From an uncultured candidate division Zixibacteria bacterium (GTDB lineage Bacteria; Zixibacteria; MSB-5A5; UBA10806), in contig CAWFQL010000003.1 of assembly GCA_963817915.1 (NCBI GenBank), positions 57,414 through 121,413 on the forward strand: a stretch of 64,000 nt of DNA, written 5' to 3'. A model generated the notes under the pieces. It ran no database searches, was not told the DNA's origin, and was given only the letters and a program-made list of their open reading frames with translations. Numbering within the stretch: position 1 is the first letter of the stretch; the number at the start of each line of letters is the position of its first letter. Below are positions 1,025 through 55,946 of the stretch, one piece after another. The position numbers and the translations under genes were made by a program.

Positions 1025-1027
1025 AAT

Positions 1028-1237: not shown

Positions 1238-1261
1238 AATGTCCTCCGTTTGAAATTTTAT

Positions 1262-1350
1262 TGCGTGTCACAGTTTACTGTGACCGCAATCCATCTTGTC
1301 GCGGTCAAAGCTTATCCGCCGCTTGTCTGGCACGCAAGCATTGACTCGCG
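1262..1350. repeat. ~70-90-nt nested-hairpin element (family F), copy 1 of 3
   Basis: gcgtgtc-acag-TTTA-ctgt-gaccgcaa...gcggtcaaagc...gacacgcaa. Other copies at 28793-28860 and 28918-28990. The inner stem shows compensatory changes between copies (gtcacag/ctgtgac versus gtcgcag/ctgcgac). Confidence 0.6.
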
Positions 1351-1376
1351 ACTAAATTATTTTGGTTTTATAATTT

Positions 1377-3628: not shown

Positions 3629-3671
3629 TTTGGTCACGCCCCCGTATAAATTGAATTGCAAAAAATACAAA

Positions 3672-4727: not shown

Positions 4728-4741
4728 TATATAAATTTCGT

Positions 4742-33028: not shown

Positions 33029-33690
33029 AACGGGCAATTGCCAATTGACCACAAGGGGGACGATATGTCCCCCTTTTTTATCGCTTCAATATATAAATAA
33101 TCTAAATGCGATATGTATAGTATATGTAAGTATATGTAAACACTTTACATATTCATGTATGTGTGCCAATTACGGGAATTCATCGCTAAATCGCTCTAAT
33201 TTAATTCGATTCTCTAAAATTATTTATTAATAAAATCAATTCCTAATAGTGTGCTGTCGATAATAATAGACGGAGTAGCAATCACAGGGTGTTAAATTAA
33301 AACAATACAATTCCCATGAGTATTAATAGACTCTCCCAACCCTGTTTTTAATTCATTATCTAAATGTGGTTTATGTCCACATCAAATCTATGGCACTTTT
33401 TACTGTATGGGATGGTTTAACAGCTATGAGGTCGAATCTGGACAAAAATTGCATTTGTCCGAATCCGATTTTTCCGCTATAATCTTAATGGGACGATAAT
33501 TTTAATCCAGGGGGTATTCCTGCAGGTAAGACGTGACGCTACTGGGGCCGAGGGGAAATCAAGGTACAGATTACTTATAAGAATTGTCCATATTGTCGCA
33601 TTAATAATATTCGCGGTCTTCCTCTTCCAGGGCATTTCTTATTATCTGGCGCCGTTTTCCCAAAGGCCTCATTTAGAAGATTATAGGATT

Positions 33691-34425
33691 TTGCGACCGG
33701 CGGCGATCTATGGCCATACGTTCGGAGTCGTAGGCTCGTTCTTTATGATTTGCATGTTGTCGTATACTCTAAGGAAAAGGATCAAGCTATTCAAGAATTG
33801 GGGATCGATCGGCAAATGGCTCGACATTCATATATTTCTCGGTATCTATGGTCCATTGCTTGTGATTTTGCATTCGACCTTCAAGGTGCAGGGATTGGTT
33901 GCTGTCAGCTTCTGGTCGATGGTTGCGGTCGCGACGAGCGGAATATTCGGTCGATATCTATATCTACAGATCCCGAGGAATATCCACGGCGACGAACTCA
34001 GCGTCAAGGAGCTCGATGAAATGAGCCAGGGGTATTACGATAAATTGAAAAATGAATTTGGCTTTACCGATGAAACATTAAAGAGCCTGAAAGAGCATAG
34101 TACTTCTGGAATAGATAAGAGCGTAGGTCCGGCAATGGTACTCTGGATACTTATTAAGGACGATATAAAGCATATATTCTCGGGGCGAAAGGAACAGAGA
34201 AAATTGGCGTCGAAGCTGAATATACCGCGCGAAGCAATATCTCGATTTCTTAAATCTAACCGCCGTCAAAATCTTCTCGAGCGAAGAATAGCCCTTATGA
34301 ATGGGGTTCAGCAGATGTTTCATTACTGGCATGTAATTCATAAGCCGTTCGCGTTCGTAATGTACATAGTAATGTTAGTGCATATAGTAGTGGCAGTCTG
34401 GACAGGATACAAATGGATATTCTAA
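33691..34425 (+). CDS. Integral membrane protein with conserved His in TM helices, possibly a b-type haem-binding subunit (DUF4405-like). First gene of the cytochrome cluster.
   Basis: 244 aa starting at a TTG. The frame is open upstream to 33430 without ATG/GTG/TTG, so the start is uncertain. TM helices carry His (YGHTFGVVGSFF; LDIHIFLGIYGPLLVILHS; FHYWHVIHKPFAFVMYIVMLVHIV). Its stop overlaps the next cytochrome start (ATGGATATTCTAA). Confidence 0.4.
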   Translation: MRPAAIYGHTFGVVGSFFMICMLSYTLRKRIKLFKNWGSIGKWLDIHIFLGIYGPLLVILHSTFKVQGLVAVSFWSMVAVATSGIFGRYLYLQIPRNIHGDELSVKELDEMSQGYYDKLKNEFGFTDETLKSLKEHSTSGIDKSVGPAMVLWILIKDDIKHIFSGRKEQRKLASKLNIPREAISRFLKSNRRQNLLERRIALMNGVQQMFHYWHVIHKPFAFVMYIVMLVHIVVAVWTGYKWIF

Positions 34426-36164
34426 GACATATTATTCGAAGAGATATCGGTCGATCAACTGTAGTTACTGCGGTCCGCTGGATAAAAATTCTTGTATATA
34501 TTCTACTGGTATCATTTATTCTGGCATCTTCAGACGCCTTCGCGCAACTCTCACCCGGTAAATTATCAAAAGCGCATTCTGACCTCGAAGGTGTTGAGCA
34601 CTGTAGTCAATGTCATGACTTTCAAGAGAAGTTATCGTCGGACAAATGCTTGACCTGTCACAAGACGCTTGGTGAACGAATAAAAGGCAGCAAAGGGTTG
34701 CACAGCAGACCAGAGTATTCACAATGTCAGACATGTCATATCGAGCACCAGGGACGCGATTTTCAGTTGGTTTACTGGAAAGATGGAGAGCAGAATTTCG
34801 ATCATACATTGACAGGATATACATTAGAAAATAAGCATGTCGGCCTTAAATGCCGCAAGTGCCATTTGCCGCAGAATATTAAGAATAAAGAAATTATGAT
34901 AAGCGATAAGACAAATCAGGATCACACTTACCTCGGGCTTGATAAGGAATGTAATACTTGTCATATCGATAAGCATCGAGGTCAGTTCAAGGATTCCTGC
35001 CAGAAATGCCATAATACGACCGGTTGGAAGCCTTTATCGGGATTCGATCATTCTAAGACAAATTACATTTTGACCGGCAAGCATATTGATGTTAAATGCG
35101 GCAAATGCCATCCTGAGATAGTCGACAATCGTTCATTGGAAGATAGCTCGTACGCTAAATTTGCCGGAGTGGCCTACAAACAATGTCTCGATTGCCATCA
35201 GGATATTCATAAAGGAAAATTCGGCCAGACCTGCGAAACATGCCACAATACCGGCGGCTGGATGAGTATCGCCCATAACAAATTTGATCACAATAAAACC
35301 AATTATCCATTATTGGGAAAGCATATCACTGTAATTTGCGAGAAATGCCACAAACCGGGAAAACCGCTCAAGGGATTGAAATATAATAACTGCGCGGATT
35401 GTCATAGCGATTATCACGTTGGGCAGTTTGCGAAAGCGGCGACAAGTCTAAAGTGCGAAAAATGTCACACAGTTTTTGGTTACTCGCCTTCTAAGTATAC
35501 TATCGCCAACCATGATACCAGCGGATATCCGTTGGCGGGAAGCCATTTGGCAGTGCCCTGTATTTTGTGCCATATGAAAATTAAAATGGCCGATGGTAGC
35601 GATAATGTCAGATTCAAGTATGATTCTGCTCATTGCAAGGATTGCCATAAGAATCCGCATAAGGACCAGGTCGATAAATATCTGAAGGGGGATGGATGTG
35701 AATTTTGCCATAAGGTCGATAGTTGGAAGAAATCGACTTATGATCACGCCAAGGCGAAATTCGCTCTCGAAGGCAAACATATTAAAGCGGATTGTGTCGT
35801 CTGCCATAAACCAGTAAATGGTGAGAAGTCGGTTTATCAATTCGCGGGCTTGCCGAAAACCTGTCAGGAATGTCATAAGGATATTCATCAGGGCCAATTT
35901 GCCAAGGCAGTTAAGGTGAAAAAGACCGAGCAGATGCTGACCGACTGCACTCGTTGCCATACTCCGAATTCATGGAAGGCCGAGAAATTTGACCATGCTC
36001 GCGATTCAGTATTCAAGCTCGATGGCGCCCATCTCAAGGTAGTATGCGGCGGCTGTCACAAGAAGAAGAAGATTGATGATGTTGAATACGCGGTTTATAA
36101 GCCATTGGAAGTAACTTGCAGCTCATGTCACGCCGGCAAGAATTTTCAGAGTACCGGGGGATAG
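34413..36164 (+). CDS. Multiheme c-type cytochrome, ~20 CxxCH
   Basis: 583 aa. Signal peptide VRWIKILVYILLVSFILASSDAFA. I count 20 CxxCH haem-binding motifs (CSQCH, CLTCH, CQTCH, CRKCH, CNTCH, CQKCH, CGKCH, CLDCH, CETCH, CEKCH, CADCH, CEKCH, CILCH, CKDCH, CEFCH, CVVCH, CQECH, CTRCH, CGGCH, CSSCH). Confidence 0.85.
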   Translation: MDILRHIIRRDIGRSTVVTAVRWIKILVYILLVSFILASSDAFAQLSPGKLSKAHSDLEGVEHCSQCHDFQEKLSSDKCLTCHKTLGERIKGSKGLHSRPEYSQCQTCHIEHQGRDFQLVYWKDGEQNFDHTLTGYTLENKHVGLKCRKCHLPQNIKNKEIMISDKTNQDHTYLGLDKECNTCHIDKHRGQFKDSCQKCHNTTGWKPLSGFDHSKTNYILTGKHIDVKCGKCHPEIVDNRSLEDSSYAKFAGVAYKQCLDCHQDIHKGKFGQTCETCHNTGGWMSIAHNKFDHNKTNYPLLGKHITVICEKCHKPGKPLKGLKYNNCADCHSDYHVGQFAKAATSLKCEKCHTVFGYSPSKYTIANHDTSGYPLAGSHLAVPCILCHMKIKMADGSDNVRFKYDSAHCKDCHKNPHKDQVDKYLKGDGCEFCHKVDSWKKSTYDHAKAKFALEGKHIKADCVVCHKPVNGEKSVYQFAGLPKTCQECHKDIHQGQFAKAVKVKKTEQMLTDCTRCHTPNSWKAEKFDHARDSVFKLDGAHLKVVCGGCHKKKKIDDVEYAVYKPLEVTCSSCHAGKNFQSTGG

Positions 36165-36166
36165 GT

Positions 36167-39100
36167 ATGAAAAAGTTTTTTGCGATAATATCTGCCATAG
36201 CTGTTGTGTTGTGCGGTGTACTTGTTTTCAGTCAGGAGCCGACAGCAAATCCGCATGGCAAATTAAAATGGGAATGCAGCGCGTGCCATAGCACCGATTC
36301 CTGGAAAATTACCAAAGCTCCAACCGGATTCAAGCATGCGGATACAGGGTTTGCCTTGCGGGGAGCGCACGATGTTACGGACTGCAGCGATTGCCACAAG
36401 GATTTGACATTTTCCCATATCGGCACGGCTTGCATAGATTGTCATACGGATATTCATCGCGGGCAATTTGGCAATTATTGCGAAAAATGCCATCTGCCCG
36501 ATAGCTGGCAAAATCGCCAGGAGCAGTTAGGCTTGCATTCATCGCGCGGATTTCCATTGATCGGTATTCATTCGATAGCTGATTGCGGCGCATGTCATGT
36601 AGGCCAGCAGCGAAATGAGTATTCCGGTACTCCGATTGAATGTATTGGCTGTCATCAGGGTAATTACGCCTCCACTACCAACCCTAATCATGTGCTTGCT
36701 AAATTCAACACGGACTGCCGCGAATGTCATAACGAATCCGCGAGTTCATGGAAAAATGCTACCTATGCGCATCCGTCGATATTCGAAATCCATGGAGCGC
36801 ATGTTGGTCTCGAATGTGTCAGATGCCATGCAGACTAGCGTTCGCGGGCACGCCAAGGGAATGTGTCGGCTGTCATTTGCCGGCTTATCAAACGGCTAAT
36901 AACCCGCCGCATGCCGTGCCGGTATTCCCGGAAGATTGCGTCATGTGTCATAACGATATTCAATGGATGGGAGCGACATTCAACCATCTTCAGGCCACAG
37001 GCTACGAATTACTCGGAGCTCATGCGACGGTGCATTGCAACGATTGCCATACCAATAATAATTATGTCAATATTCCTAACCAGTGTTTTGGGTGCCATCA
37101 GAATAATTATAATGAAGCGGCTAATCCCAATCACCAAACAAATAATTTCGATCACGATTGTACCGTCTGCCATAACTTTAATGGCTGGTCTCCTTCGACA
37201 TTCAATCATAGCGCAACCCGATTCGCTCTTACCGGAGTGCATCTAACAACACAATGCGTAGCCTGCCATACCAACGGCTACCAGAGTACTCCGATGGATT
37301 GTTACAGTTGCCATCAAAACAATTATAATTCGGCGACAAATCCCAATCATGCGACCAATAATTTCAATCACGATTGCACGCAATGCCATAATACCGCCGG
37401 ATGGTCGCCATCGACATTTAATCATAGCCAGACCAGGTTCACATTAACCGGCGCGCATTTGACTATCCAGTGTGTTGCCTGCCATGCTAATGGCTACCAG
37501 AATACACCGCTGGATTGTTATAGCTGCCACGTTAATAATTTTAACGGAGTGACTGATCCCAACCACGTGACCAATAATTTCAGCCACGATTGCACCCAAT
37601 GCCATTCTACGGTCTCATGGTCAGGCGGAACATTCAATCATAGTCAGACGCAGTTCCCGTTGACCGGCGCCCACGCTACAATACAATGTATAGCATGCCA
37701 CGCCAATGGTTACCAAAACACGCCGACGGATTGCTATAGTTGTCATTTGAACGATTTTAATGGGGCGACTAATCCCAATCATGTCACCAATAATTTCGGC
37801 CATGATTGCACCCAATGCCATTCCAATACAGCCTGGTCGCCTTCGACATTCAATCATAGCCAGACACAATTCCCACTTGACGGGCGCTCATGCGACAAGG
37901 CAGTGTATTGAATGCCATGCCAATGGCTACCAGAACACTCCATCAGACTGCTATAGCTGTCATCAAAGCAATTTTAATGGTGCGACCAATCCTAATCATG
38001 TGACCAATAATTTCAGTCATGATTGTACGCAATGTCATTCGACTTCCGTCTGGATACCATCGACTTTTGATCATAATCAAACCAGATTTCCATTAACCGG
38101 TGCCCATATATCTCGGCAATGCGTTGATTGCCATGCTAATGGTTACCAGAATACCCCATTTGATTGCTATAGCTGCCATCAAAGCAATTTTAACGGCGTT
38201 AGCGATCCTAATCACGTCACCAATAACTTCAGCCATGATTGCACGTTATGCCATTCGACTTCAGGCTGGTCACCGGCGACTTTCGACCATAACTCGACCA
38301 GATTCCCATTAACCGGACGGCACATTGGCCTAAATTGTGTTGCCTGTCATGCCAATGGTTATCAGAATACTCCATATGATTGCTATAGCTGTCACGTAAA
38401 TGATTATAATGACGTAAATGATCCGGACCATAGGGCCAATAATTACAGCCATGATTGCACGCAATGTCATAATACATCGGGATGGGGTAATGGTACATTC
38501 AATCATAATCCGACGAGATTTCCATTGACCGGGGCGCACGTGAGCCTGCCATGTATTTCATGTCATGCCAATGGTTATCAGAATACGCCTTACGATTGCT
38601 ATGGATGTCATCAGACTAATTATAATATGGTCCCGGACCCAAACCACGTGCAAAATAATTTTAATCATGACTGTACGCAATGCCATAATACTTCAGCCTG
38701 GACACCGGCATCATATGATCATAGCCAAACAAGATTCCCGTTGACCGGTGCCCATGTTGGACAGACATGTGTTGCCTGTCATGCCAATGGCTATAATAAC
38801 ACGCCATTTGACTGCTTTAGCTGCCACACAGGTAATTATAATTCGGCTACTGATCCCAACCATGTGACCAATAATTTTGACCATGACTGTACGCGATGTC
38901 ATACATACTAGGTCTGGTCGCCTTCGACATTCAGCCATGGCTCGACAAGATTCCCGTTAACCGGCGCGCATGTTCCTCTTCAATGTATTTCTTGTCACGC
39001 CAACGGATATCAGAATACACCGTTGGATTGCTACAGTTGCCATGTGGGCAATTATAATTCGGTTACCGACCCCAACCATGTGACCAATAATTTCGACCAT

Positions 39101-40670
39101 GATTGTACCCAGTGTCATACGACATCGGTCTGGAATCCATCGACATTTAATCACAGCTCGACCAGGTTCCCCTTAACTGGCGCGCACAATACGCTGCAAT
39201 GCATTTCGTGTCATGCCAACGGATACCAGAATACGCCGTTGGATTGTTACAGTTGCCATGTCGGTAATTATAATTCCGTTCCGGATCCTAATCACGTTAC
39301 CAATAATTTCAGCCATGATTGCACTCAATGCCATACAACTGCGGGCTGGACTCCGGCGAATTACAATCATAGTCAAACGAGATTTCCGTTAACTGGGGCG
39401 CATGTAAATCTTGCCTGCGTGGCCTGCCATGCCAATGGCTATCAGAATACGCCGTTCGATTGCTATAGCTGCCATCAGAATAACTACAATGGCGTCGTCG
39501 ATCCCAATCACAACACCAATAATTTCAGCCACGACTGCACAGTATGTCACACTACATCCGGATGGACACCTGTATCGTTCAATCACGGATTGACGCAATT
39601 CCCGTTAACCGGGGCGCATGTAAATCTTGCCTGTGTTGCTTGTCACGCCAATGGATACCAAAATACGCCTATGGATTGCTATAGCTGTCACCAGAGCAAT
39701 TATAATGGTGTTACGGATCCTAATCATGTCACCAATAATTTCAGCCATGACTGTACTATCTGTCATACGACCACAGCCTGGAATCCTTCGACATTCAATC
39801 ACGGGCAAACCCAATTCCCGTTAACCGGCGCGCATGTGAGTCTTGCCTGCATATCCTGTCACGCCAATGGGTACCAAAATACGCCTATGGATTGCTATAG
39901 CTGTCATCAGGGCAATTATAACGGTGTTACGGATCCTAATCATGTCACCAATAATTTCAGTCACGACTGCACCGTATGTCATACTACTTCAGCCTGGACT
40001 GCCCGCGACATTTAATCATGGCACGACCAGATTCCCGTTGACCGGTGCGCATGTAAGCCTGGCCTGTATAGCCTGCCATGCCAATGGCTATCAGAATACG
40101 CCTTTCGATTGCTATAGTTGTCATCAAAGCAATTTCAATGGTGTCGTAGATCCAAACCACGTCACCAATAATTTCAGCCATGACTGCACCGTATGTCATT
40201 CTACTTCGGCTTGGTCGCCGGCGTCATTCAACCATAATCAAACACAGTTCCCATTGACCGGAGCGCATACTACACTGCAATGTGTCGCCTGCCACGCCAA
40301 TGGATACCAAAATACCCCGACTGCTTGTGTCAGCTGCCATCAGGCCGATTATAATGGCGCCACAAATCCGAATCATACCGCTCAGGGATTTCCCACGCAA
40401 TGCCAGCAGTGTCATACAACCGCTAATTGGACGCAATTAACTTATAACCATAATACTCAATATTTCCCAATTACTACCGGAAGGCATGCTACCGTTTGGT
40501 CAACCTGTGCTACCTGCCATAATATTCCTGGAAATCTTGCGCATTTCGAATGTATCCTCTGCCATGAGCACAACCGCTCTGACACAGATTCACAGCATCA
40601 GGGTAGGTCGGGTTATCAATATCTAAGCACTGCGTGCTACGCTTGCCATCCCAGAGGCAATGCCGGTTAG
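36167..40670 (+). pseudogene. Giant multiheme cytochrome c (~1500 aa, ~60 CxxCH) made of ~16 tandem 72-aa tri-haem modules. The reading frame is interrupted at four or more positions.
   Basis: ATG at 36167 with signal peptide (MKKFFAIISAIAVVLCGVLVFS). The first ~220 aa carry 8 CxxCH. From ~36.9 kb a 216-bp module repeats: FNHSQTRFPLTGAHxxLxCxACHANGYQNTPxDCYSCHxxNYNGVTDPNHVTNNFSHDCTQCHxTxxWxPST. The track shows it as five ORFs (36116-36838, 36748-37911, 37760-38911, 39023-40015, 39843-40670). Breaks: a frame change near 36838; a +1 frame change near 37875 (ccgttgacc versus ccacttgacg); an in-frame TAG at 38909-38911 where paralogous modules have Ser/Ala; a frame change near 39995 (actccggcgaca versus actgcccgcgaca). 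The C-terminal tail is shared with the next gene (…CHxHxxxxTDSxHQ…YxxxxxACYxCH). Confidence 0.7.
36990..40420 (+). repeat. Coding tandem repeat: ~16 copies of a 216-bp unit (three haem sites per unit)
   Basis: Adjacent units are nearly identical at DNA level (e.g. 39400-39615 versus 39616-39831). The period is defined by recurrence of DCYSCH, HDCTQCH and ACHANGYQNTP codons. Confidence 0.8.
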
Positions 40671-40679
40671 GTGTAGTAT

Positions 40680-41483
40680 ATGTCTGGCATGCGTATAATA
40701 CTCATTATGGCAATTAGCCTTGCCACGGGAGTTCCCTGCTATTCACAGGAGAATCCTCATCGAGACTCCAAGCTCGATTGCCAGGAATGTCATACCGCTT
40801 CAAGTTGGACCGATATCAAGTTTGATCATCAGAAGACCGGTTTTGTGCTCGATGGAAATCATTTGGAGGTTCCCTGCGTCTCATGTCATTCATTGGTTGA
40901 TTTCAATATAGTTTCAAAGGAGTGTGTTTTTTGTCATGTTGATATTCATCAGGGGAAATTGGCCCGTACTTGCGAACAGTGCCATTCGACAAGGGGATGG
41001 AATATTTTCAATACAACAAGAGCGCATGCGAATACGACATTCCCTCTGATTGGCGCGCACGCAAAGCTCGATTGCCGTTCCTGCCATCTAAGCGAAATTG
41101 AAGGAGAGTATTCATTGCTTAAATCGGAATGTATATCTTGCCACGAGGCCGACTTTAATAATGCCCAAAATCCGTCCCATTCGGCATTGGGATTCGGGAC
41201 TCGCTGCAATGATTGCCATACGCTTTTATCCTGGCGCCCCGCCGATTTTTCACAGCATAATTCGTATTTTCCTATATATAGCGGGGCACATGCCGGAAAA
41301 TGGCGGAGTTGTTATGATTGTCATCCGACTCCGGGTGATTACGGAATCAGTACCATGACCTGTTTTTCCTGCCATGTTCATGACCAAGGGTCGACAGATT
41401 CTCGGCACCAAGAGGTCGCAGGATACGTTTATCAAAGCAGCGCCTGCTATAATTGTCATTCAAGCGGAAGCGCTGGAGGCTGA
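40680..41483 (+). CDS. Multiheme c-type cytochrome, 10 CxxCH
   Basis: 267 aa with signal peptide. CQECH, CVSCH, CVFCH, CEQCH, CRSCH, CISCH, CNDCH, CYDCH, CFSCH, CYNCH. Its C-terminal tail is homologous to the tail of the giant cytochrome. Confidence 0.85.
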   Translation: MSGMRIILIMAISLATGVPCYSQENPHRDSKLDCQECHTASSWTDIKFDHQKTGFVLDGNHLEVPCVSCHSLVDFNIVSKECVFCHVDIHQGKLARTCEQCHSTRGWNIFNTTRAHANTTFPLIGAHAKLDCRSCHLSEIEGEYSLLKSECISCHEADFNNAQNPSHSALGFGTRCNDCHTLLSWRPADFSQHNSYFPIYSGAHAGKWRSCYDCHPTPGDYGISTMTCFSCHVHDQGSTDSRHQEVAGYVYQSSACYNCHSSGSAGG

Positions 41484-41493
41484 GAGGTCTAAT

Positions 41494-43104
41494 ATGAAGG
41501 GATTATTAGTCAAAATCCTTGCAACGATAATATTCGCGCTTATTTTCCGGGTTGGAGCGTCGGCCGCTATCCATGTCCAATATCTTTCCCAGGAAGCGGT
41601 CTATATCGATGCCGGAATCGAAGACAGCCTTTCAATCGGCGATCAACTCGAGATCAGAAAAGGCGACAGCCTTATTGCTCAATTAGAAATTATCTTCGCG
41701 TCCGAGCATTCGGCTTCCTGCAAGATACTTAATTCGACAGGTACAATCGAAATCGGGGCTACCGTAAATATCACTTCAAGGGCGATCGTGGCCAAGCCGG
41801 CCCCGGCAGATTCTGTTGCGGATACGACTGCGAAAAAACTTGAGCCTGCGCCAATTGCAGTTGCGCCAAAGCCTAAGAAAAATTCTACCCATTTCAGCGG
41901 GACTATTGCCTTGCAGACTTATAATTGGAACGATATCACTTCATCGAATCTTGATTTCTCCCAGCCGTCGGCGAGAATAAATATTACCGCCCTGAAACTC
42001 TGGGGCACCGAGCTTTCATTTACGCTAAGATCGACCATCCGCAATGAACGAAGGACCCGCAGCTATAGCAGCTCTGTTCCCAAAAGCGAATGGCGCAATA
42101 GGGTATACCAACTTTCAATAGGGTATTCGGATGACAACGGGCCATTCGGGTTTGAATTCGGCAGAATAATCTCGAATAAAATCAGCGGTATCGGATATAT
42201 AGATGGAATCCTTGTCCATCGCAGGGTGAGCAAATTGGTCAATATGGGAGTATTTGTAGGGACTCAACCCCAATGGCAATATTCCGATTTTCAAACTTCG
42301 ATCCAGAAATACGGATTTTATACTAATTACGCGCGAGGCGAATATGCCAAATCTCGTTATGAAGTGACCCTGGCGGCCGCGGGCGAATATCATAGCAATA
42401 TCGTCAGCCGTGAATTCATTTATCTTCAGAATAATCTCATTATTAAGGGCGATTGGAATATTTTTCAGAGCGCGGAATTGGATCTTAATCGCGGATGGCG
42501 TAAAGAAAAATCGAAAATAGGCACATCTCTAACTAACTTCTACCTTTCCACCAGGAAACGAGTTACTGGCTGGCTTTCGGCGAGCCTGAGCTTTGATTCC
42601 CGTAAAAACTATTGGACCTATGAAATTCGTTCGATGGCCGAGCAGCTTTTCGATAGCAATGTCCGGCGCGGAGGCAGAGCGGATATTTCGCTGAGACTGC
42701 CTGGCAATTTCCAGCTTCTCGCGGGATTTGGCTTGCGGAAACGGGCCACGGAATCGGGCTCTACCTATTCTTATTCTGGGGCATTGAATAAATCCAATAT
42801 CCTCAATTCAAAGCTGGACATAAATATTCAGATGTCGGGATTTACCAACCCGCTTACAAACGGGTATAATGTATCCACGACTCTCGGTCGCTATTTCGGC
42901 AGGGGGAACTACCTGAGTATTGGATACAGCGGATACGTATATTCGATCCAAAATGGCGGTCCAACCCGCAGTAATACCGCATATCAGCTAAGCTCAATGA
43001 TAAGCATTATCAGATCCGTATATTTTTCCGGTCAATATGAATACGACACTGGGGATGATACCAAAGGCCATCGAATAGTAGCGGAACTCGGTTATCGTTT
43101 CTAA
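41494..43104 (+). CDS. Outer-membrane beta-barrel protein, candidate porin partner of the cytochromes (Pcc/MtrB-like role)
   Basis: ATG at 41494 preceded by ggaggctgagaggtc. The listed ORF starts earlier but overlaps the previous gene. Signal peptide MKGLLVKILATIIFALIFRVGASAA. ~510-aa mature, beta-rich, alternating-hydrophobic sequence ending in the OMP signature ...AELGYRF with a terminal Phe. The barrel assignment rests on composition and terminus only. Confidence 0.5.
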   Translation: MKGLLVKILATIIFALIFRVGASAAIHVQYLSQEAVYIDAGIEDSLSIGDQLEIRKGDSLIAQLEIIFASEHSASCKILNSTGTIEIGATVNITSRAIVAKPAPADSVADTTAKKLEPAPIAVAPKPKKNSTHFSGTIALQTYNWNDITSSNLDFSQPSARINITALKLWGTELSFTLRSTIRNERRTRSYSSSVPKSEWRNRVYQLSIGYSDDNGPFGFEFGRIISNKISGIGYIDGILVHRRVSKLVNMGVFVGTQPQWQYSDFQTSIQKYGFYTNYARGEYAKSRYEVTLAAAGEYHSNIVSREFIYLQNNLIIKGDWNIFQSAELDLNRGWRKEKSKIGTSLTNFYLSTRKRVTGWLSASLSFDSRKNYWTYEIRSMAEQLFDSNVRRGGRADISLRLPGNFQLLAGFGLRKRATESGSTYSYSGALNKSNILNSKLDINIQMSGFTNPLTNGYNVSTTLGRYFGRGNYLSIGYSGYVYSIQNGGPTRSNTAYQLSSMISIIRSVYFSGQYEYDTGDDTKGHRIVAELGYRF

Positions 43105-43152
43105 AGTTGATATTCATAGAGATGTTTAGAATTCAGGATTTTGTGAGGTAAT

Positions 43153-44487
43153 ATGGAATCAGACGCAATCTGGATATTCACGGTAATACTCATAGTAAGT
43201 ATTTCCGCCCCATATTTTATAAAATTTCGCAAACGCCAGAAAATGGATATCGAACGGCGGAAAGAGGCGGAAATCTTGGGCATCAGCAAGCCTTCCAGCC
43301 AATATCCGATGATCGACTCCACTCTCTGTATTGGCTGCCGCACCTGTGTCGATGCTTGTCCCGAGCATGATGTGCTCGGTATCGTATTCGGCAAGGCAAT
43401 GGTTATAAACGGCCAGCGTTGTGTTGGACATGGCTACTGCGAACTCGTGTGTCCTGTTGGAGCATTGAAAGTGGGACTCGGCGATATCAAAACTCGTCCC
43501 GATATTCCAGTCGTAGATGACAATAACCAATCCAATATTCCGGGCCTTTTTATCGCCGGTGAATTGGCCGGTCTTTCGTTGATCAGAAATGCTATAGATC
43601 AGGGAAGACGGGTTATAGAAAAAATAGCCGAAAATAATAATCGCTCAGCCAATGAAAATATTTACGATGTCATAATAATTGGAGCTGGTCCGGCGGGGCT
43701 TACTGCCTCACTTAATGCGATCAAAAACAAACTTTCTTACCTTCTAATCGACCAGCAGGCTCCGGGTGGTACGATTCTTCAATATCCCCGACATAAATTG
43801 GTAATGACCCAGCCTGTGGAAATTCCCCTTTATGGCTGGCTCAAGAAAGAAGAGTATGCCAAGGAAGACCTGCTGGATATATGGAATAAAATATTGAATG
43901 ACTTCAAGATCAATGTTCGAGTGGGTGAGAAGATCGAATCTGTCAGAAAAGAAGCGGAAGTATTCAAGGTTAAATCGCTTGCGGCCGAGTATTCCGCAAA
44001 TCATGTGGTGTTATCGATGGGTCGCCGGGGCACTCCCCGAAAACTTGGCGTAACCGGTGAAGATCTTCCCAAGACTCTCTATCAGCTGCTCGACGCGCAA
44101 TCGTATAATAACAATCATATTCTTGTTGTGGGCGGCGGCGATAGCGCTATCGAAGCGGCAGTTGGTCTTGCGCATCAGACCGGAAATAAAATCACGATTT
44201 CTTATAGAAAAAGCACATTTGCCCGTGTTAAGAAGAAAAATGAAGATCTTGTCAAAAAAGCTATCGCTGAAAAGAAAGTCAGAGCTATTTTCAATTCGGA
44301 AGTTCTCGAAATCAGAGATAAGAATGTCAAACTAAAAGTAGGAGAAGACATAGTCGAAATACTCAACGATTTTGTCTTCGTGTTTATCGGCGGCGAGCCT
44401 CCTATCAAAATGCTTAAGGAGATGGGCATATTATTCGGCGGCGAAGCGCCGGTTATCGAAGTTCCGCCTGTCCCGGCAATGTCTTAA
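43153..44487 (+). CDS. Membrane-anchored fusion of a 2x[4Fe-4S] ferredoxin and an FAD/NAD(P)-dependent oxidoreductase (thioredoxin-reductase-like)
   Basis: 444 aa. N-terminal TM helix. CIGCRTCVDACP and CVGHGYCELVCP ferredoxin motifs. Dinucleotide-binding motifs DVIIIGAGPAGL and ILVVGGGDSAIEAA. Confidence 0.7.
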   Translation: MESDAIWIFTVILIVSISAPYFIKFRKRQKMDIERRKEAEILGISKPSSQYPMIDSTLCIGCRTCVDACPEHDVLGIVFGKAMVINGQRCVGHGYCELVCPVGALKVGLGDIKTRPDIPVVDDNNQSNIPGLFIAGELAGLSLIRNAIDQGRRVIEKIAENNNRSANENIYDVIIIGAGPAGLTASLNAIKNKLSYLLIDQQAPGGTILQYPRHKLVMTQPVEIPLYGWLKKEEYAKEDLLDIWNKILNDFKINVRVGEKIESVRKEAEVFKVKSLAAEYSANHVVLSMGRRGTPRKLGVTGEDLPKTLYQLLDAQSYNNNHILVVGGGDSAIEAAVGLAHQTGNKITISYRKSTFARVKKKNEDLVKKAIAEKKVRAIFNSEVLEIRDKNVKLKVGEDIVEILNDFVFVFIGGEPPIKMLKEMGILFGGEAPVIEVPPVPAMS

Positions 44488-44555
44488 GACAATCCTCAAT
44501 TTTGCATATAAAAAAGGCGGCACTCAGGCCGCCTTTGAAAAAAATCTGTCTTCAT

Positions 44556-47500
44556 TTACTTCAACAATAACATCTTGTTGGTTTTGGTGAAATTAGCGGT
44601 TTCGATTTTGTAGAAATAAAGCCCGGTCGCGACTTTTCGGCCCGATTCATCCTTGCCATCCCAAACAACCTGCTTATAGCCGGCAGCCTGTCTTTGATCC
44701 ACAAGGTTTTTCACCTTCTGACCCATAATATTGAATACTACAATTCTCACTTCGGAATCGACCGCGAGCCCATAAGAAATCGTGGTTGAAGGATTGAATG
44801 GGTTCGGATAGTTTTGCGATAGGAAGAACTTCTTCGGAGCGGTGATATCATCGTTCAACCCTGTGATTGTCAGCGCCTTTCCAGAGCCGGCGGTTGATCC
44901 GAATGATTCGGCGGTTAGATTTCCTTCGGAGAATAGAGCGCTAACGTAATACCAATAAAGATTAGTATCGGCAAGATCAATATCCGAATAGCTCGTTGCC
45001 TGAATCGGAGAATCGTTCAGCTTCGAAAAATCACCATTGGGCCAACGGCTTCTGTAAATATTAAATCCGGCGAGATTAGGATTCGTTAATGTATCCCAGC
45101 GAACCTCGATTAAATTAGAAATATTGTTCGATGCTGAAAGACTGGATGGTATCGGGCATCGAGTGAGATGTAATGTCTCCGTCTCGATAAGCTGGTTGGC
45201 TACCACCTGGATACTTTCCTGATAGGCAGGGTAATATCCAAGGGCTTCGGCGGTGAGGCTTATTGTTCCGGGCGGTACTTCTTTAATAAAGAACCTGCCA
45301 TCGCTGGCTGAAATTCTCCTTTGACCTGTGCTCGCATGAATTTGAGCGTCGCCATTCTGGCCGCTTCCATCAAGATCGACACTTCCCCTTACTGAGCCGC
45401 GTCCGGTACTGGTGGTAATCAGCGTGACTGCGCCGTCAATCAAGGTCGCTCCTCCCGGAGCGTAATAATTGTCGTGCGTAAATTCCAGCCCGCGTTGTTC
45501 ATCGTAGCTCTCGAATCCTACGGACGCGTAACCCTCTCCAGAGTCGGTGTTATTAACATCTCTGTAAATAAAAAGGATATCGGAATCGCCTGTAAGGCTC
45601 GGATAATAGGCTGGATCCATAATAACCATCTGGAATGTTTCGTACTGGAAGGTATTCGTATTGGTTAATTTCAACCACTCTATATAAAATTTATGGTTCA
45701 CCGAATCATACCATTTGTAAACACCTAAGTGCGTTCCGTCAATTCTGAGATCATCCCAGAACGGCGAAATCTGTCCGCGCGCGTTACCCGGGTCAGGAAT
45801 TGGCCAATTGAAGAAGTTGGCCCAGTAATTTCCCTGCATATCCATTGGAGTAGTATCCAACGCTGCGAAACCATTGATACAAACTATCATCGCCCCGTAA
45901 TCTTGGCCATAATACTTCATGTTGAATGGCAATGTCACGAGAACCGATTTGTCATCCAACTCGGATCCATAATTCAAACGAGTACCCTGCCCGCCGCTAT
46001 CCGGGCTGATTTCAACCCATTGATAAGTCGGCATCATTGCGTATGCGCTGTCCATACGATCATACATGTAATAGCCATAGGAATCCGGCCCAACCGGGTC
46101 CCTTGACGAAATTCGTCCAACTGTTAGTGTAAATGGAATCGATGACTTTGAACCCGAAAGGGTTGATATATGAAGAGTCAGATTTAATTTTTTGCCCTTA
46201 AAGGCAGTCGAATCGCATGTGATACTGACGAGAGAACTGGAATTGTCGCCGGAGCCGCCGATTGAAATATCACCGAAATTGGCAATTGATCCAACGGCAT
46301 TCGCATAATCATCATCGGTTGTCACAATACCGGTAACACCCTGGGCATTAAGCGATCCGCTATTGGATAAAAATATCTTGAGATTGGCTGTTTGACCCGG
46401 ACCGATAAGGCTGTCACCCTCGGGGATTATAGCTCTGGTGACTGCGAATTTTGGAGCCTTTACCGGGAATTCGATCATAGTTTGCCAGCTGTCATTATTT
46501 TGGTCTCTGATTGTCAATTTCTGCCTGACAGTTTGACCATCGGAAGCGGCGGGATTTACATATACCACAAATGGCGCTTCTGATGCTCTCGATTCGCCCG
46601 GCGCCAGATTGCCGTAATTGCGAATACCGTCATAGACAACAGAATTCCCATCGGTTGATTCCAACTGCGCGGATACATTCGTAGCTGAAATATCCGTACC
46701 GAAATTCTTGATTGAGACATTTAATTCGATTGTCTCGCCAGGCGCGGCTAAATGATCGCCGTCTCCGTGAGAAAAGCCGTCGGTATCATCATCGATATAA
46801 ATGGAGTCCAATCCTACTGCCAGATCGGATGTCGCTATTTCCACATTGGTTTGGTAAGGAATAAGATTTTGTCCGGAAACGGTAAGCTTCATTGAGCCGG
46901 GAGTATTGGCGTCAAATATTAGCGTGACATTTCCCGATTCATCGGTTTTATCGACACTGAATACTTCTTCGGTTGTCCCAATAGTTTTGATCAATGTCAC
47001 ATATGCGCCTGAAATCGCGTTGCCCGCTGAATCTATCACTGAAGCATTAAAGCTGTTTGTTCCCAGTGCCACAGTATCGAGATGTGTAACGTTTATGCTT
47101 ATTGGAATTTTAGTGCGTAATTCAAGTTCAGGATCGCCCAGCATATTATATGTATTGAAATATTGTTGTATCATTCCTCCCGGGGCGGTCTGTCTTGGGA
47201 ATGTCCAGTAATCCTGAAGCTTTCCTCTCACTGCCGCGGCGGCAAAATGATAGACATTCTCTTCAAATATCCCGAAGAAATAGCCGACCATAATGGGGTT
47301 ATTCCATCTGGTATGGGTGTCGTGATCGGAAACCCCATAAAACGCCGGTCCGCCTTTCAAGCTATCAGGACTACGTCCCATTCTAATCCAGGTCTCGCCA
47401 AAACATTCACCGCCGAAATCACCGGTGCCGCAAGTCAATGGAGACAGAACGCCAAGTTTTTGATTGTCCTGTAAATTGAGCAAATCGTAACTCGTCATCG

Positions 47501-48872: not shown

Positions 48873-49245
48873 TTGACCTCCACTAAGCCTTAAAAAAATA
48901 AACATAAACATATCCCATAATTTTAGGCGAGAATATCCCCCCAGCGATTTCTCGTTTACCAATGGATTAAACAACTTAATCCGCTTGGCTCGTTCCACTA
49001 ATATAATCGATAATTTTTTACTTAGTAAATTATGTCATTGAAATTTTGATTTAAATTGGGAAATTCTCAAAATTTGCAACCCCATTTTTGAGACTATTAT
49101 TGAGTGGGCCGCCCACGTTAACCTGATGAATATTTTGCGGTTATGGAAATTATTGGCGGTTCATTTAATGCGGTGATAATTATACGAAATAGAAATGGGG
49201 CGAATAATGTTCGCCCCGAATTACTCCGACTATTGAAAAATCAGA

Positions 49246-55812: not shown

Positions 55813-55946
55813 ACCTTCCTTATCCGGAAATTTATTGGAAAAGAAATCCTTATTCTTCAACCAATTAATTATCATTATCTTTTCCCCATCAAATACATGC
55901 TATCAAAAAAGCCGCAATATCCTAAGCTTGCCCTTTTGCCCCGTTA

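What the first reader, a model, noticed from the sequence alone, without database searches (positions are those of the whole stretch)
33430..44487. Porin-cytochrome style gene cluster centred on a ~60-haem tandem-repeat cytochrome
Six co-directional, tightly spaced genes, several overlapping or within about 10 nt: a His-rich membrane protein, a 20-haem cytochrome, a ~1500-aa cytochrome with ~16 near-identical tri-haem modules, a 10-haem cytochrome, an outer-membrane beta-barrel ending in Phe, and a membrane ferredoxin-flavoprotein. I count ~90 CxxCH sites in 11 kb. The repeat module (…ACHANGYQNTPxDCYSCH…NPNHVTNNFSHDCTQCH…) is unusually regular, which suggests a wire-like polymer of tri-haem units. 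It looks like a complete extracellular electron transfer conduit (inner-membrane quinol oxidase or b-haem protein -> periplasmic cytochromes -> porin-embedded cytochrome) in a T9SS-bearing lineage. The giant cytochrome is the most unusual gene in the window.
Basis: partly seen in the sequence, partly recalled or inferred. Interest (0 to 1): 0.8.

Follow-up and report, generated by a model that had tools for sequence, protein, structure and literature searches.

The report
Porin-cytochrome operon with broken 61-haem wire
This is a real six-gene operon of a widespread but untested kind that appears built to carry electrons from the cell interior through both membranes along chains of haem groups, but its 61-haem "wire" gene is interrupted four times in this assembly and is mid-sized for its family.

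Summary
Six co-directional genes lie at 33.5-44.5 kb, with 91 CxxCH sites against 2 on the rest of the + strand. They sit between a strong terminator-like hairpin upstream and a second hairpin downstream. The giant cytochrome is not one ORF here: it needs three 1-nt frame corrections and read-through of one TAG. Corrected, it is 1500 aa with 61 haems. Its 72-aa tri-haem units are only 56-88% identical, so repeat collapse is unlikely. The first gene has no ATG/GTG/TTG where its relatives start.

The same gene set recurs in about 55 loci from Zixibacteria, Calditrichota, KSB1, Ignavibacteria, other Bacteroidota and Acidobacteriota. It comprises a ~300-aa membrane protein, a 20- or 23-haem cytochrome, a cytochrome with 3n+7 haems (10 to 109), a barrel protein and a membrane FeS-flavoprotein. 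The barrel gene models as a 22-strand outer-membrane barrel. The membrane protein carries the motif signature published for "PCC3/PCC4" inner-membrane proteins.

Best reading: a PCC3-like trans-envelope electron conduit. I infer, but have not shown, that it is fed from NAD(P)H through the flavoprotein and two b-haems. No function has been tested anywhere. Cytochromes with more than 100 haems were already noted in Bacteroidota. Interest is moderate.

The parts
33053..33075 (+). Terminator-like hairpin closing the upstream SPFH/Band_7 gene. It marks the upstream boundary of the unit.
   Evidence: 10-pair stem with 6 GC pairs, followed by a T run. Band_7 assignment.
33455..33483 (+). Best sigma-70-like promoter match (TTGTCC-17-TATAAT, 10 of 12). 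It lies 31 nt upstream of the expected g1 start.
   Evidence: This is a consensus match only. The number of matches in the region is not above the shuffled expectation.
33514..34425 (+). g1: ~300-aa inner-membrane protein with 5 TM helices, a putative di-haem b transmembrane electron carrier. Motifs: W130-x3-H134-x13-H148 on TM3, S170-G-x-x-G174 on TM4, W300-x3-H304-x13-H318 on TM5 (numbering from 33430). There is no canonical start codon: GTA at 33514 aligns with the Met of relatives, and the frame is open from 33430.
   Evidence: invariant His/Trp/Gly residues in 36 homologues; AF2 model, pLDDT 75.6, helical; weak hits to Ni_hydr_CYTB and DUF4405, below cut-off; motif definition from PMC5566968.
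34413..36164 (+). g2: 583-aa cytochrome with 20 CxxCH and a Sec signal peptide (AFA|Q). It consists of a 3-haem cap, five ~85-aa tri-haem modules and a 2-haem end. It is the candidate periplasm-spanning wire.
   Evidence: Cytochrome_C7 at 1.9e-21, c3_2, CIII. The orthologue has 20 haems in nearly all intact loci and 23 in Bacteroidota-type clusters.
36167..40670 (+). g3: giant cytochrome. After four corrections it is 1500 aa with 61 CxxCH: a signal peptide, a 4-haem N-cap, 18 tri-haem modules (15 canonical 72-aa units from 37201 to 40442) and a 3-haem C-cap. In the window it is split into five ORFs.
   Evidence: Intact orthologues have 16 to 73 haems in the fetched loci and up to 106-109 in the protein collection.
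36836..36838 (+). Lesion 1 in g3: one nucleotide is missing (GAC TA- GCG). The original frame hits TAG and the reading continues in frame 0.
37876..37879 (+). Lesion 2 in g3: one surplus nucleotide (CCA CTT G ACG, where sister units read CCG TTG ACC).
38909..38911 (+). Lesion 3 in g3: an in-frame TAG where the sister unit has TCG (Ser).
   Evidence: TAG is a normal stop codon in this window.
40001..40001 (+). Lesion 4 in g3: a surplus G (TGG ACT G CCC GCG, where the sister unit reads TGG ACT CCG GCG). It is not in a homopolymer.
40680..41483 (+). g4: 267-aa cytochrome with 10 haems. It is a paralogue of g3 with the same N-cap and C-cap and a single module.
   Evidence: 40% identity, E 4e-68, end to end against g3 with 17 modules removed, with all 10 CxxCH in register. 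Pfam hits. It is optional: absent from many loci.
41494..43104 (+). g5: 536-aa outer-membrane protein. It has a signal peptide, a small N-terminal beta domain (residues ~26-95), an Ala/Pro-rich linker and a 22-strand beta-barrel ending in GYRF.
43153..44487 (+). g6: 444-aa membrane-anchored protein. An N-terminal TM helix is followed by KFRKRQK, which places the rest in the cytoplasm. It then has two 4Fe-4S motifs and a thioredoxin-reductase-like FAD/NAD(P)H domain with no CxxC outside the ferredoxin part.
   Evidence: YpdA family 8.7e-51, below cut-off; PDB: Bdr/YpdA, TrxR, TrxR-like ferredoxin-NADP reductases. It is present in 52 of 54 barrel-bearing loci and is the best conserved protein of the set.
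44513..44536 (.). GC-rich hairpin between g6 and the convergent C25 peptidase gene. It marks the downstream boundary of the unit.
   Evidence: 9-pair stem with 6 GC pairs. The scan reports it only on the - strand, where a T run follows it.

Best explanation
The region is one operon for a trans-envelope electron conduit. It has the architecture that He et al. 2017 called PCC3, here in a version typical of the FCB-group phyla.

Proposed path (inferred, not shown):
1. g6, a cytoplasmic membrane-anchored NAD(P)H-FAD-2x[4Fe-4S] protein, passes electrons to g1.
2. g1 carries them across the inner membrane on two b-haems, held by His pairs on TM3 and TM5.
3. g2, a 20-haem chain long enough to cross the periplasm, takes them to the outer membrane.
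4. There a g3/g4-type cytochrome sits in or at the 22-strand barrel g5.
5. g3 continues outside the cell as a single-polypeptide haem wire.

The wire's length is set by the number of 72-aa tri-haem modules. The haem count follows 3n+7, with n = 18 here, n = 1 in the paralogue g4 and n up to 34 elsewhere. From haem spacings in solved multihaem cytochromes (about 0.8-1.0 nm per haem; my own knowledge), 61 haems would span roughly 50-60 nm and 20 haems roughly 16-20 nm.

Net flow is most likely outward, to insoluble or polymeric acceptors such as Fe(III)/Mn(IV) minerals or humic matter. NAD(P)H is a low-potential donor, and the membrane potential favours electron export.

State in this genome: g3 carries three frameshifts and one nonsense codon, and g1 lacks a canonical start. 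As assembled, the long wire cannot be made. I put roughly 55-60% on these lesions being real, meaning recent decay or a defective allele in the population, with the intact g4 possibly still serving as a short version.

Shown: the gene content, the conservation, the haem arithmetic, the barrel fold and the motifs. Inferred: every electron-transfer step, the topology of g3 and the direction of flow.
For: - Haem sites and modules.
- Operon boundaries.
- Conserved gene set in about 55 loci from at least six phylum-level groups. The orthologue of g2 has a fixed 20 or 23 haems, while the g3 orthologue varies from 16 to 109.
- 99 of the 120 best g3 relatives have haem counts equal to 1 mod 3.
- g4 equals g3 with the internal modules removed.
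- g5 is a 22-strand OM barrel.
- g1 has the exact signature given for PCC3/PCC4 inner-membrane proteins: about 300 aa, 5 TM helices, SGxxG on TM4 and two W-x3-H-x13-H motifs on TM3 and TM5 (PMC5566968).
- g6 accompanies the barrel in 52 of 54 loci. The two exceptions are contig ends. It is the most conserved component, and it sits directly next to g1 in Bacteroidota and next to g2 in Acidobacteriota gene orders.
- A distant g1 homologue on a Bradyrhizobium plasmid lies between a FAD_binding_6 + NAD_binding_1 + Fer2 protein and a c3-type cytochrome. That is a different protein family doing the same NAD(P)H-FAD-FeS job.
- g6 resembles TrxR-like ferredoxin-NADP reductases and YpdA, without a redox-active CxxC.
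- More than 20 other genes in the window give full-length Pfam matches in uninterrupted ORFs, so the lesions are specific to this operon.
- A natural nonsense allele of the orthologue exists: L001 and L002 differ by a single C-to-A over 9856 bp.
Against: - No experiment on any member of this cluster type turned up in seven literature searches.
- The weak Pfam hit of g1 is to the quinone-reactive Ni_hydr_CYTB family.
- g3 has no lipobox, no T9SS sorting domain and no evident export route, so its extracellular location is assumed.
- Exporting electrons from NAD(P)H without the quinone pool conserves no energy and depolarises the membrane.
- Four of the five lesions fall in g3 and none in g2, g4, g5 or g6. 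That is uneven for neutral decay of a dead operon (my rough multinomial estimate is p ~0.01), so an artefact specific to the repeat gene remains possible.
Confidence: 0.6

Rival explanations
1. It is the same conduit, but coupled to the quinone pool. g1 would be a quinol:cytochrome c oxidoreductase (or a quinone reductase), as He et al. proposed for the PCC3/PCC4 inner-membrane proteins. g6 would be an accessory or regulatory redox protein, not the electron source.
For: - g1's only database similarity is to the quinone-reactive cytochrome b561 / Ni-hydrogenase cytochrome b family. Pfam PF01292 scores E 3.5e-4, below its cut-off.
- This is the published hypothesis (PMC5566968).
- All characterised EET chains known to me (CymA, ImcH, CbcL) start from quinol.
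Against: - g6 is invariably present and is the most conserved protein of the set.
- It sits directly beside g1 in Bacteroidota gene orders, and next to g2 in the Acidobacteriota ones.
- Distant g1 homologues pair with an unrelated NAD-FAD-[2Fe-2S] protein.
- No quinone-site motif was identified.
Confidence: 0.3
2. The conduit runs inward. It would take electrons from Fe(II), reduced minerals, cathodes or partner cells, as proposed for PCC3 in neutrophilic iron oxidisers.
For: PCC3 was defined in iron-oxidiser genomes and modelled as an uptake route (PMC5566968; PMC9900912). Multihaem chains are reversible in principle.
Against: - If g6/g1 is the inner terminus, inward flow would have to reduce NAD(P)+ against both redox potential and membrane potential (inference from standard potentials).
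- The carriers here are Zixibacteria, Calditrichota, Ignavibacteria, Saprospiraceae and Emticicia. To my knowledge they are mainly organotrophs, not lithotrophic iron oxidisers.
Confidence: 0.12
3. The four g3 lesions and the missing g1 start are assembly or consensus errors. In the living organism g3 would be an intact 1500-aa, 61-haem protein and the conduit would be complete.
For: - In the corrected frame all 61 CxxCH are intact and there is no further stop. That would be surprising for an old pseudogene.
- The lesions are concentrated in the one repetitive gene.
- Orthologous genes are also fragmented in other MAGs: L008 (g2), L010 and L042.
- He et al. report a homopolymer sequencing error that split a PCC3 porin gene.
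Against: - The units share at most 38-nt exact words and are at most 87% identical, so reads should not cross-map.
- One insertion (G at 40001) is not in a homopolymer, and one lesion is a substitution.
- More than 20 other genes in the same 64 kb are intact with full-length domain matches.
- A real nonsense polymorphism exists in the orthologue of another population.
- The g3 fragments and g1, at the starts I tested, are absent from the protein collection that holds g2, g4, g5 and g6 of the same contig. This is only weakly informative.
Confidence: 0.42
4. The giant cytochrome is not an extracellular wire. It would be a periplasmic or surface-attached electron store (a capacitor) that buffers redox swings, and the barrel would have an unrelated transport role.
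For: - A capacitor role has been suggested for >100-haem proteins of activated-sludge Bacteroidota (PMC11495043) and for PCC3 cytochromes (PMC9900912).
- No secretion signal beyond Sec was found on g3.
Against: - A chain of 61 to 109 haems would be far longer than the periplasm is wide (inference from haem spacing).
- The barrel gene is strictly syntenic with the cytochromes across phyla.
- The g2 orthologue keeps a fixed haem number while g3 varies freely. That fits a gap of fixed width (the periplasm) plus an unconstrained outer part.
Confidence: 0.1

Closest known systems
PCC3 porin-cytochrome gene clusters (He et al. 2017, PMC5566968; Gallionellaceae survey, PMC9900912). These are bioinformatic predictions in Alpha-, Beta- and Gammaproteobacteria.
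   Same: - Four shared component types: an OM barrel, a ~20-haem cytochrome (21-27 haems in PCC3, 20 or 23 here), a very large repeat-built cytochrome, and a ~300-aa inner-membrane protein. The large cytochrome has a median of 34 haems and up to 85 in PCC3, against 16-109 here.
- The inner-membrane protein has 5 TM helices, SGxxG on TM4 and two W-x3-H-x13-H motifs on TM3 and TM5.
- The amino-acid-to-haem ratio is low: 24.6 for g3 and 29 for g2, against 22-39 reported.
- Repeats are ~66-72 aa with 3 haems each.
   Different: - The host phyla differ.
- In PCC3 the tri-haem ~66-aa repeats are reported for the 'periplasmic' cytochrome, with haem numbers divisible by 3. Here the expanded protein follows 3n+7.
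- PCC3 porins often have up to ~40 predicted strands, although the L. cholodnii porin has 22. Here there are 22 strands plus an N-terminal domain.
- No FeS-flavoprotein partner is described for PCC3.
- Sequence homology could not be tested here.
MtrCAB (Shewanella) and MtoAB/PioAB porin-cytochrome complexes
   Same: The logic is the same: a multihaem cytochrome threaded through an OM beta-barrel, linking periplasm and exterior. g2 and g4 give weak hits to the DmsE/MtrA decahaem model and to MtrC domain II/IV.
   Different: - There is no MtrB_PioB family hit for g5, and g5 has 22 strands, not the 26 of MtrB.
- Scores to the MtrA and MtrC models are far below cut-off: 52 and 16 bits against 192.
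- There is no lipoprotein cytochrome.
- The proposed inner-membrane entry point differs: CymA/quinol in Shewanella.
Geobacter c7-type polymer cytochromes (GSU1996, GSU0592, GSU2210) and the 'nanowire_3heme' domain
   Same: These are single polypeptides built from tandem ~70-80-aa tri-haem c7-like domains. The Pfam Cytochrome_C7 model matches g2, g3 and g4 above its threshold.
   Different: - No NCBIfam hit to a nanowire-type tri-haem family was found for the g3 modules, and no PDB sequence match has E < 0.5.
- To my knowledge the Geobacter proteins have 12-27 haems, are periplasmic and are not encoded with a barrel, a b-haem protein or a flavoprotein.
NOX / ferric reductase (FRD) systems and the bacterial MsrQ-Fre pair
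   Same: A membrane protein with two b-haems on His pairs of TM3 and TM5 takes electrons from a cytoplasmic NAD(P)H-flavin module and delivers them to the other side of the membrane. This is the logic inferred for g6 + g1. The motif parallel was already noted by He et al..
   Different: - g1 has 5 TM helices, not 6.
- It gives no Pfam Ferric_reduct hit and no significant structural match to NOX or STEAP.
- The flavoprotein is TrxR-like, with two 4Fe-4S clusters, and is a separate membrane-anchored polypeptide.
'Undescribed' >100-haem cytochromes of Saprospiraceae and other Bacteroidota in activated sludge (PMC11495043)
   Same: These are probably the same protein family. The best g3 relatives include 82-106-haem proteins named by NCBI as Saprospiraceae, Saprospirales and Lewinellaceae. 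Two of them (P0253, unnamed host; P0304, Saprospiraceae) sit in the same cluster type.
   Different: That paper lists haem counts only. It does not describe the operon, the 3n+7 rule or the partner proteins. I did not confirm identity with their proteins.

Membership tests
PCC3-type porin-cytochrome cluster (He et al. 2017) | [quoted passage not shown] | tested here: met
   conserved in about 55 loci.
PCC3-type porin-cytochrome cluster (He et al. 2017) | The inner-membrane protein is ~300 aa with 5 TM helices, SGxxG on TM4 and W-x3-H-x13-H on both TM3 and TM5. | tested here: met
   W130/H134/H148, S170-G174 and W300/H304/H318, invariant in the homologues. The motif also holds in the Emticicia and Bacteroidota copies.
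PCC3-type porin-cytochrome cluster (He et al. 2017) | The cytochromes have very many haems, a low amino-acid-to-haem ratio (22-39) and internal repeats. | tested here: met
   g2: 583 aa / 20 haems = 29. g3: 1500 aa / 61 haems = 24.6. 72-aa repeats.
PCC3-type porin-cytochrome cluster (He et al. 2017) | Sequence homology to the reference proteins of Sideroxydans lithotrophicus ES-1 or Leptothrix cholodnii SP-6. | not testable with these tools
   The reference sequences are not held in the paper's supplements. The AFDB library was unavailable.
MtrAB/MtoAB/PioAB family | The barrel belongs to the MtrB_PioB family, and the decahaem belongs to the DmsE/MtrA family above the model cut-off. | tested here: not met
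   g5 has no Pfam or NCBIfam hit. TIGR03508 scores 52 bits for g2 and 16 bits for g4, against a cut-off of 192.
Geobacter c7-polymer 'nanowire' cytochromes (GSU1996 type) | Tandem tri-haem domains recognised by the curated tri-haem nanowire model, or similar in sequence to the solved structure. | tested here: not met
   NCBIfam gives only weak ExtN/ExtO hits for four modules. No PDB sequence hit has E < 0.5. Only the general Pfam Cytochrome_C7 model matches.
Ferric reductase domain (NOX/FRE/STEAP/MsrQ) superfamily | A match to the FRD profile, or the FRD fold with two b-haems on TM3/TM5 His pairs. | tested here: inconclusive
Prokaryotic cytochrome b561 / Ni-hydrogenase cytochrome b (PF01292) | A profile match above the gathering score; a four-helix di-haem b bundle. 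| tested here: inconclusive
Outer-membrane beta-barrel proteins | A closed antiparallel barrel with a C-terminal aromatic residue and a signal peptide. | tested here: met
TrxR-like ferredoxin-NAD(P)+ reductase / YpdA-type flavoproteins | A two-dinucleotide-binding-domain flavoprotein of the TrxR fold that lacks the redox-active CxxC. | tested here: met
   Pyr_redox_3 at 7e-44. PDB hits to Bdr/YpdA at 4.7e-24, to TrxR and to FNR. Direct reading of the sequence shows that the only Cys motifs lie in the two 4Fe-4S sites. The YpdA equivalog score is below its cut-off (172.6 against 339.9), so g6 is a relative, not a YpdA orthologue.

The most novel reading that the evidence does not exclude
This cluster type is a quinone-independent, NOX-like electron export chain. 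NAD(P)H would be oxidised by a membrane-anchored FeS-flavoprotein. Electrons would cross the inner membrane on two b-haems and leave the cell on a single-polypeptide haem wire. Evolution would tune the wire's length by adding or removing 72-aa tri-haem modules: 10 to 109 haems, roughly 8 to 100 nm. That would be a monomeric alternative to the polymerised cytochrome filaments of Geobacter, used by mostly organotrophic FCB-group bacteria as a non-respiratory electron sink. Frequent nonsense and frameshift alleles of the giant gene, seen in this window and in L002, would then reflect on/off variation of a very costly surface structure.
Probability: 0.25. Interest if true: 0.8.

Novelty: new variant of a known kind. 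Interest (0 to 1): 0.5.

Why it matters
If the reading is right, several abundant and mostly uncultured sediment, soil and sludge phyla share one conserved machine for moving electrons out of the cell. These are Zixibacteria, Calditrichota, KSB1, Ignavibacteria, Saprospiraceae and some Acidobacteriota. That bears on who reduces iron, manganese and humic matter in anoxic habitats.

The 3n+7 haem rule and the short paralogue g4 give a natural length series, from 10 to 109 haems. It could be used to study long-range electron transfer in a single polypeptide.

The invariant FeS-flavoprotein suggests an entry point that bypasses the quinone pool. That would be new for porin-cytochrome systems.

A cultured carrier, Emticicia oligotrophica DSM 17448 (plasmid pEMTOL02), makes the question testable.

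For this particular window the value is lower. The giant gene is broken and is mid-sized for its family.

Tried and rejected
- **Repeat collapse or chimeric assembly.** Rejected. The units are 57-87% identical, share at most 38-nt exact words, and the cluster is syntenic in relatives.
- **TAG recoding or read-through as an explanation of the in-frame stop.** Rejected. TAG ends 16 of 48 long ORFs.
- **A compensating double indel instead of a point nonsense mutation at 38909.** Considered. The sister unit reads TCG, so a single C-to-A change is simpler.
- **General poor sequence quality.** Rejected. More than 20 other genes have full-length Pfam matches, and no other split gene was seen.
- **Looking up the window's own contig by protein.** The barrel protein is listed for a 168,128-bp NCBI/ENA contig, but the exact look-up found no record and no names or accessions. 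Its nearest relatives are Zixibacteria-like, at 49-63% identity.
- **Finding PCC3 reference sequences in the paper's supplements.** Only tables and repeat coordinates are held.
- **Rfam and tRNA scans of the window.** Nothing found.
- **Literature searches for a description of this FCB-type cluster.** The searches found PCC3, general porin-cytochrome reports for Ignavibacteria and Zixibacteria (PMC7399161, PMC7005843), and the >100-haem note. None described this operon with its flavoprotein. The library is not exhaustive.
- **A search inside the Desulfuromonadia cytochrome survey.** It gave no relevant passage.

Full report
**1. What is in the sequence**

Between 33.4 and 44.5 kb the + strand carries six tightly packed genes. 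I counted 91 CxxCH motifs in the three + strand frames of this region. The other 53 kb of that strand hold only 2. The whole − strand holds 9, of which 8 belong to a separate cytochrome gene at 54.7-55.9 kb.

Tandem Repeats Finder reports a 216-nt period with 14.9 copies at 37093-40319. A strong terminator-like hairpin at 33053-33075 closes the upstream SPFH gene. Another hairpin at 44513-44536 separates g6 from a convergent peptidase gene. The best promoter-like site lies at 33455-33483. The unit therefore looks like one operon.

**2. The giant gene is broken here**

The 60-haem cytochrome exists only after repair. The reading frame changes three times:
- at about 36836, where one nt is missing and the old frame runs into TAG;
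- at about 37879, where there is one surplus nt;
- at 40001, where there is one surplus G.

There is also an in-frame TAG at 38909-38911. The sister repeat unit has TCG at that position, so one C-to-A change explains the stop. TAG is a normal stop codon in this window, ending 16 of 48 long ORFs.

After repair the protein is 1500 aa with 61 CxxCH and no further stop.

The first gene, g1, is open from 33430 but has no ATG, GTG or TTG until 33691. That late start would remove the first transmembrane helix. Where the closest relative has its Met, the window reads GTA at 33514.

More than twenty other genes in the window give full-length Pfam matches in uninterrupted ORFs. The gaps between genes show no other split gene. 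Sequence quality in general is therefore good, and the lesions are specific to this operon.

**3. The repeats are old, not near-identical**

The 15 canonical 72-aa units are 57-87% identical in DNA and 56-88% in protein. The longest exact word shared by two units is 38 nt. Collapse or expansion of the array by an assembler is therefore unlikely. Cross-mapping of reads is a poor explanation for the frameshifts.

One insertion is outside any homopolymer, and one lesion is a substitution. On the other hand, all 61 haem sites are intact in the repaired frame. Four of the five lesions sit in g3, and none in the 5.4 kb of g2, g4, g5 and g6. I cannot decide between recent real inactivation and artefact. 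I lean to real at about 55-60%.

A real case exists elsewhere. Two JGI contigs (L001, L002) carry the orthologous 9856-bp cluster and differ by a single C-to-A change. It turns TCG into TAG inside the 46-haem gene.

**4. Architecture of the cytochromes**

g3 consists of a signal peptide, a 4-haem N-cap, 18 tri-haem modules (three divergent, fifteen canonical) and a 3-haem C-cap. That gives 3n+7 haems.

g4 has 10 haems. It aligns end to end with g3 once 17 modules are removed: 40% identity, E 4e-68, all ten CxxCH in register. It is the n = 1 form of the same protein.

g2 has 20 haems. It is built from a related ~85-aa tri-haem module: a 3-haem cap, five modules and a 2-haem end (read from the sequence).

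All three match Pfam Cytochrome_C7, c3 and class III models. They are not members of the MtrA/DmsE, MtrC or HmcA families, because their scores fall far below the cut-offs. The modules give no curated tri-haem 'nanowire' hit and no PDB sequence hit.

All three mature N-termini would begin with Gln after a signal-peptidase I site. To my knowledge this is common in Bacteroidota-type exported proteins. None has a lipobox or a T9SS sorting domain.

**5. The barrel**

An AlphaFold2 model of g5, built on 39 homologues, has a mean pLDDT of 81.6. It shows a small N-terminal beta domain, a disordered Ala/Pro linker and 22 strands between residues 133 and 535.

From standard barrel geometry, 22 strands give a Cα diameter of about 4.4 nm (my calculation). 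That is wide enough in principle for a c7-like chain.

**6. Conservation**

The barrel has 131 relatives in the protein collection. The window's own copy is listed on a 168-kb NCBI/ENA contig, and the next relative is only 53% identical. A scan of species-representative genomes returned 50 loci. They come from Zixibacteria, Calditrichota, KSB1, Ignavibacteria, Thermoanaerobaculia/Acidobacteriota and others.

In the loci with enough flanking DNA the order is: inner-membrane protein, 20-haem cytochrome, variable cytochrome, optional 9/10-haem paralogue, barrel, FeS-flavoprotein. The flavoprotein is present in 52 of 54 loci with a barrel. The two exceptions are contig ends. It is the best conserved protein of the set, at 48-68% identity (41% in the Emticicia plasmid copy).

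The variable cytochrome has 16, 19, 22, 25, 28, 31, 34, 37, 43, 46, 52, 58, 67 or 73 haems in these loci.

A search with the repaired g3 found 1895 relatives. The best 120 are 928-2610 aa long and carry up to 106 CxxCH. Ninety-nine of them obey 3n+1, which is the same rule as 3n+7.

The 2610-aa protein and a 2289-aa Saprospiraceae protein lie in the same cluster type with a different gene order: inner-membrane protein, flavoprotein, 23-haem cytochrome, giant cytochrome, barrel, GW-domain protein. In the first of these a ResB/CcsA cytochrome c maturation gene follows. The first of these is open further upstream and really has 109 sites.

A cultured bacterium, Emticicia oligotrophica DSM 17448, carries the cluster on plasmid pEMTOL02, with 23- and 40-haem cytochromes.

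**7. The inner-membrane end**

g1 has five predicted helices. The invariant residues are W130-x3-H134-x13-H148 on TM3, S170-G-x-x-G174 on TM4 and W300-x3-H304-x13-H318 on TM5. Two His pairs 14 residues apart on two helices is the classic arrangement for two b-haems stacked across a membrane.

He et al. 2017 give exactly this signature for the conserved inner-membrane proteins of their PCC3 and PCC4 clusters: about 300 aa, five helices, SGxxG on TM4 and two W-x3-H-x13-H motifs on TM3 and TM5. They note the parallel with the ferric reductase/NOX domain, while proposing a quinone-reactive role.

g6 has an N-terminal helix followed by a basic stretch, which places the rest in the cytoplasm. Then come two 4Fe-4S motifs and a TrxR-like FAD/NAD(P)H domain. 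That domain lacks the redox-active CxxC. It is closest to YpdA/Bdr, thioredoxin reductases and TrxR-like ferredoxin-NADP reductases.

A distant g1 homologue on a Bradyrhizobium plasmid lies between a c3-type cytochrome and a protein with FAD_binding_6, NAD_binding_1 and 2Fe-2S domains. That protein belongs to a different family but has the same NAD(P)H-FAD-FeS logic. Similar triplets recur on Sphingobium and other plasmids. This recurrent partnership is my main reason to propose that g1 takes electrons from a cytoplasmic NAD(P)H-linked protein, not (or not only) from quinol.

**8. How it most likely works**

The inferred path is: NAD(P)H to g6 (FAD, two 4Fe-4S), to g1 (two b-haems across the inner membrane), to g2 (20 c-haems across the periplasm), to a g3/g4-type cytochrome held in the g5 barrel, and out along the g3 modules.

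The fixed haem number of g2 fits a gap of fixed width. The free variation of g3 fits a part with no such constraint, that is, outside the cell.

Outward flow is favoured by the low potential of NAD(P)H and by the membrane potential. Such a path would conserve no energy itself. It would act as an electron sink for organotrophs. None of these steps has been shown.

The main rivals are a quinol-coupled entry, inward electron uptake as proposed for PCC3 in iron oxidisers, and a capacitor role.

**9. Comparison with what is known**

The closest described system is PCC3. It is known only from comparative genomics of Proteobacteria (PMC5566968, PMC9900912). Four architectural features match.

Homology to the reference proteins could not be tested. 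The flavoprotein partner, the 3n+7 rule and the host phyla are not part of the published description.

Porin-cytochrome clusters have been reported in general terms for Ignavibacteria and Zixibacteria (PMC7399161, PMC7005843). Cytochromes with more than 100 haems have been noted as 'undescribed' in Saprospiraceae (PMC11495043). I found no paper that describes this operon as such, but the library is incomplete.

**10. Verdict**

The porin-cytochrome interpretation is well supported at the level of architecture and conservation.

The claims of completeness, near-identity of the modules and exceptional size are not supported. The window holds a mid-sized and apparently disrupted member of a widespread, uncharacterised, PCC3-like family. 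I rate it a new variant of a known kind, with moderate interest.

Noticed in passing
window 54688-55875 (- strand) and 56591-57367 (- strand): A second multihaem cytochrome of 395 aa with 8 CxxCH, matching Paired_CXXCH_1 and an MtrC-like domain. A Fer4_5 polyferredoxin-type protein lies next to it. Together they may form another membrane redox module, unrelated to the main cluster.
   Followed up: partly
L001 7554 versus L002 5213 (JGI metagenomes 3300069122 and 3300067036): The orthologous 9856-bp cluster is identical in two samples except for one C-to-A change. It turns a Ser codon (TCG) into TAG in the 46-haem gene, splitting it into 22 + 24 haems. This looks like a natural nonsense polymorphism.
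   Followed up: yes
L054 (Emticicia oligotrophica DSM 17448 plasmid pEMTOL02, record 78197-90781): A cultured Bacteroidota strain carries the cluster on a plasmid. The order is ccsA, inner-membrane protein, FeS-flavoprotein, 23-haem and 40-haem cytochromes, barrel, GW-domain protein. It is a possible experimental model.
   Followed up: partly
L056 8743-16833 (ENA ERZ25074583, 8.05-Mb contig): The gene was called as 2610 aa with 106 CxxCH. The frame is open further upstream and holds a signal peptide and three more CxxCH, so the true count is 109. This is among the highest haem counts I met: the literature I read cites 85 (He et al. 2017) and 112 (PMC11495043).
   Followed up: partly
L055 (Bradyrhizobium sp. 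BTAi1 plasmid pBBta01, record 145891-149163) and Sphingobium/Legionella/Alteromonas plasmids: Short homologues of the inner-membrane protein are annotated 'iron reductase' or hypothetical. On the Bradyrhizobium plasmid one sits in a three-gene module with an NAD-FAD-[2Fe-2S] protein and a small c3-type cytochrome, with no barrel gene. On the Sphingobium/Sphingomonas plasmids a 2Fe-2S protein is annotated under the match. The contexts on the Legionella and Alteromonas plasmids were not examined.
   Followed up: partly
window 19382-21637 (- strand): A 751-aa protein with a GmrSD N-terminal domain and a Schlafen/AlbA_2 domain. It looks like a type IV restriction or defence gene.
   Followed up: no
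window 44556-48998 (- strand) and 25892-27532 (+ strand): A 1480-aa gingipain-like C25 peptidase with a C-terminal Ig-like tail, and a beta-propeller protein with a Por_Secre_tail domain. Both confirm a T9SS-bearing lineage.
   Followed up: partly
window 1-1376: There is no long ORF in any frame, only many short ones, and no Rfam or tRNA hit. The stretch is unexplained. It may be non-coding, or it may be the degraded end of a gene that runs off the window.
   Followed up: partly
window 2219-6436 (- strand): An MprF-like pair (LPG_synthase_TM and LPG_synthase_C as two separate ORFs) lies next to a VirJ-type hydrolase. This suggests an aminoacyl-phosphatidylglycerol synthesis and turnover module.
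   Followed up: no
L008 3213-4926, L010 7254-9868, L042 731-6193: Orthologous cytochrome genes in other MAGs are also split across frames: g2 in L008, and g3 in L010 and L042. Fragmentation of these genes therefore recurs in public assemblies, whatever its cause.
   Followed up: no
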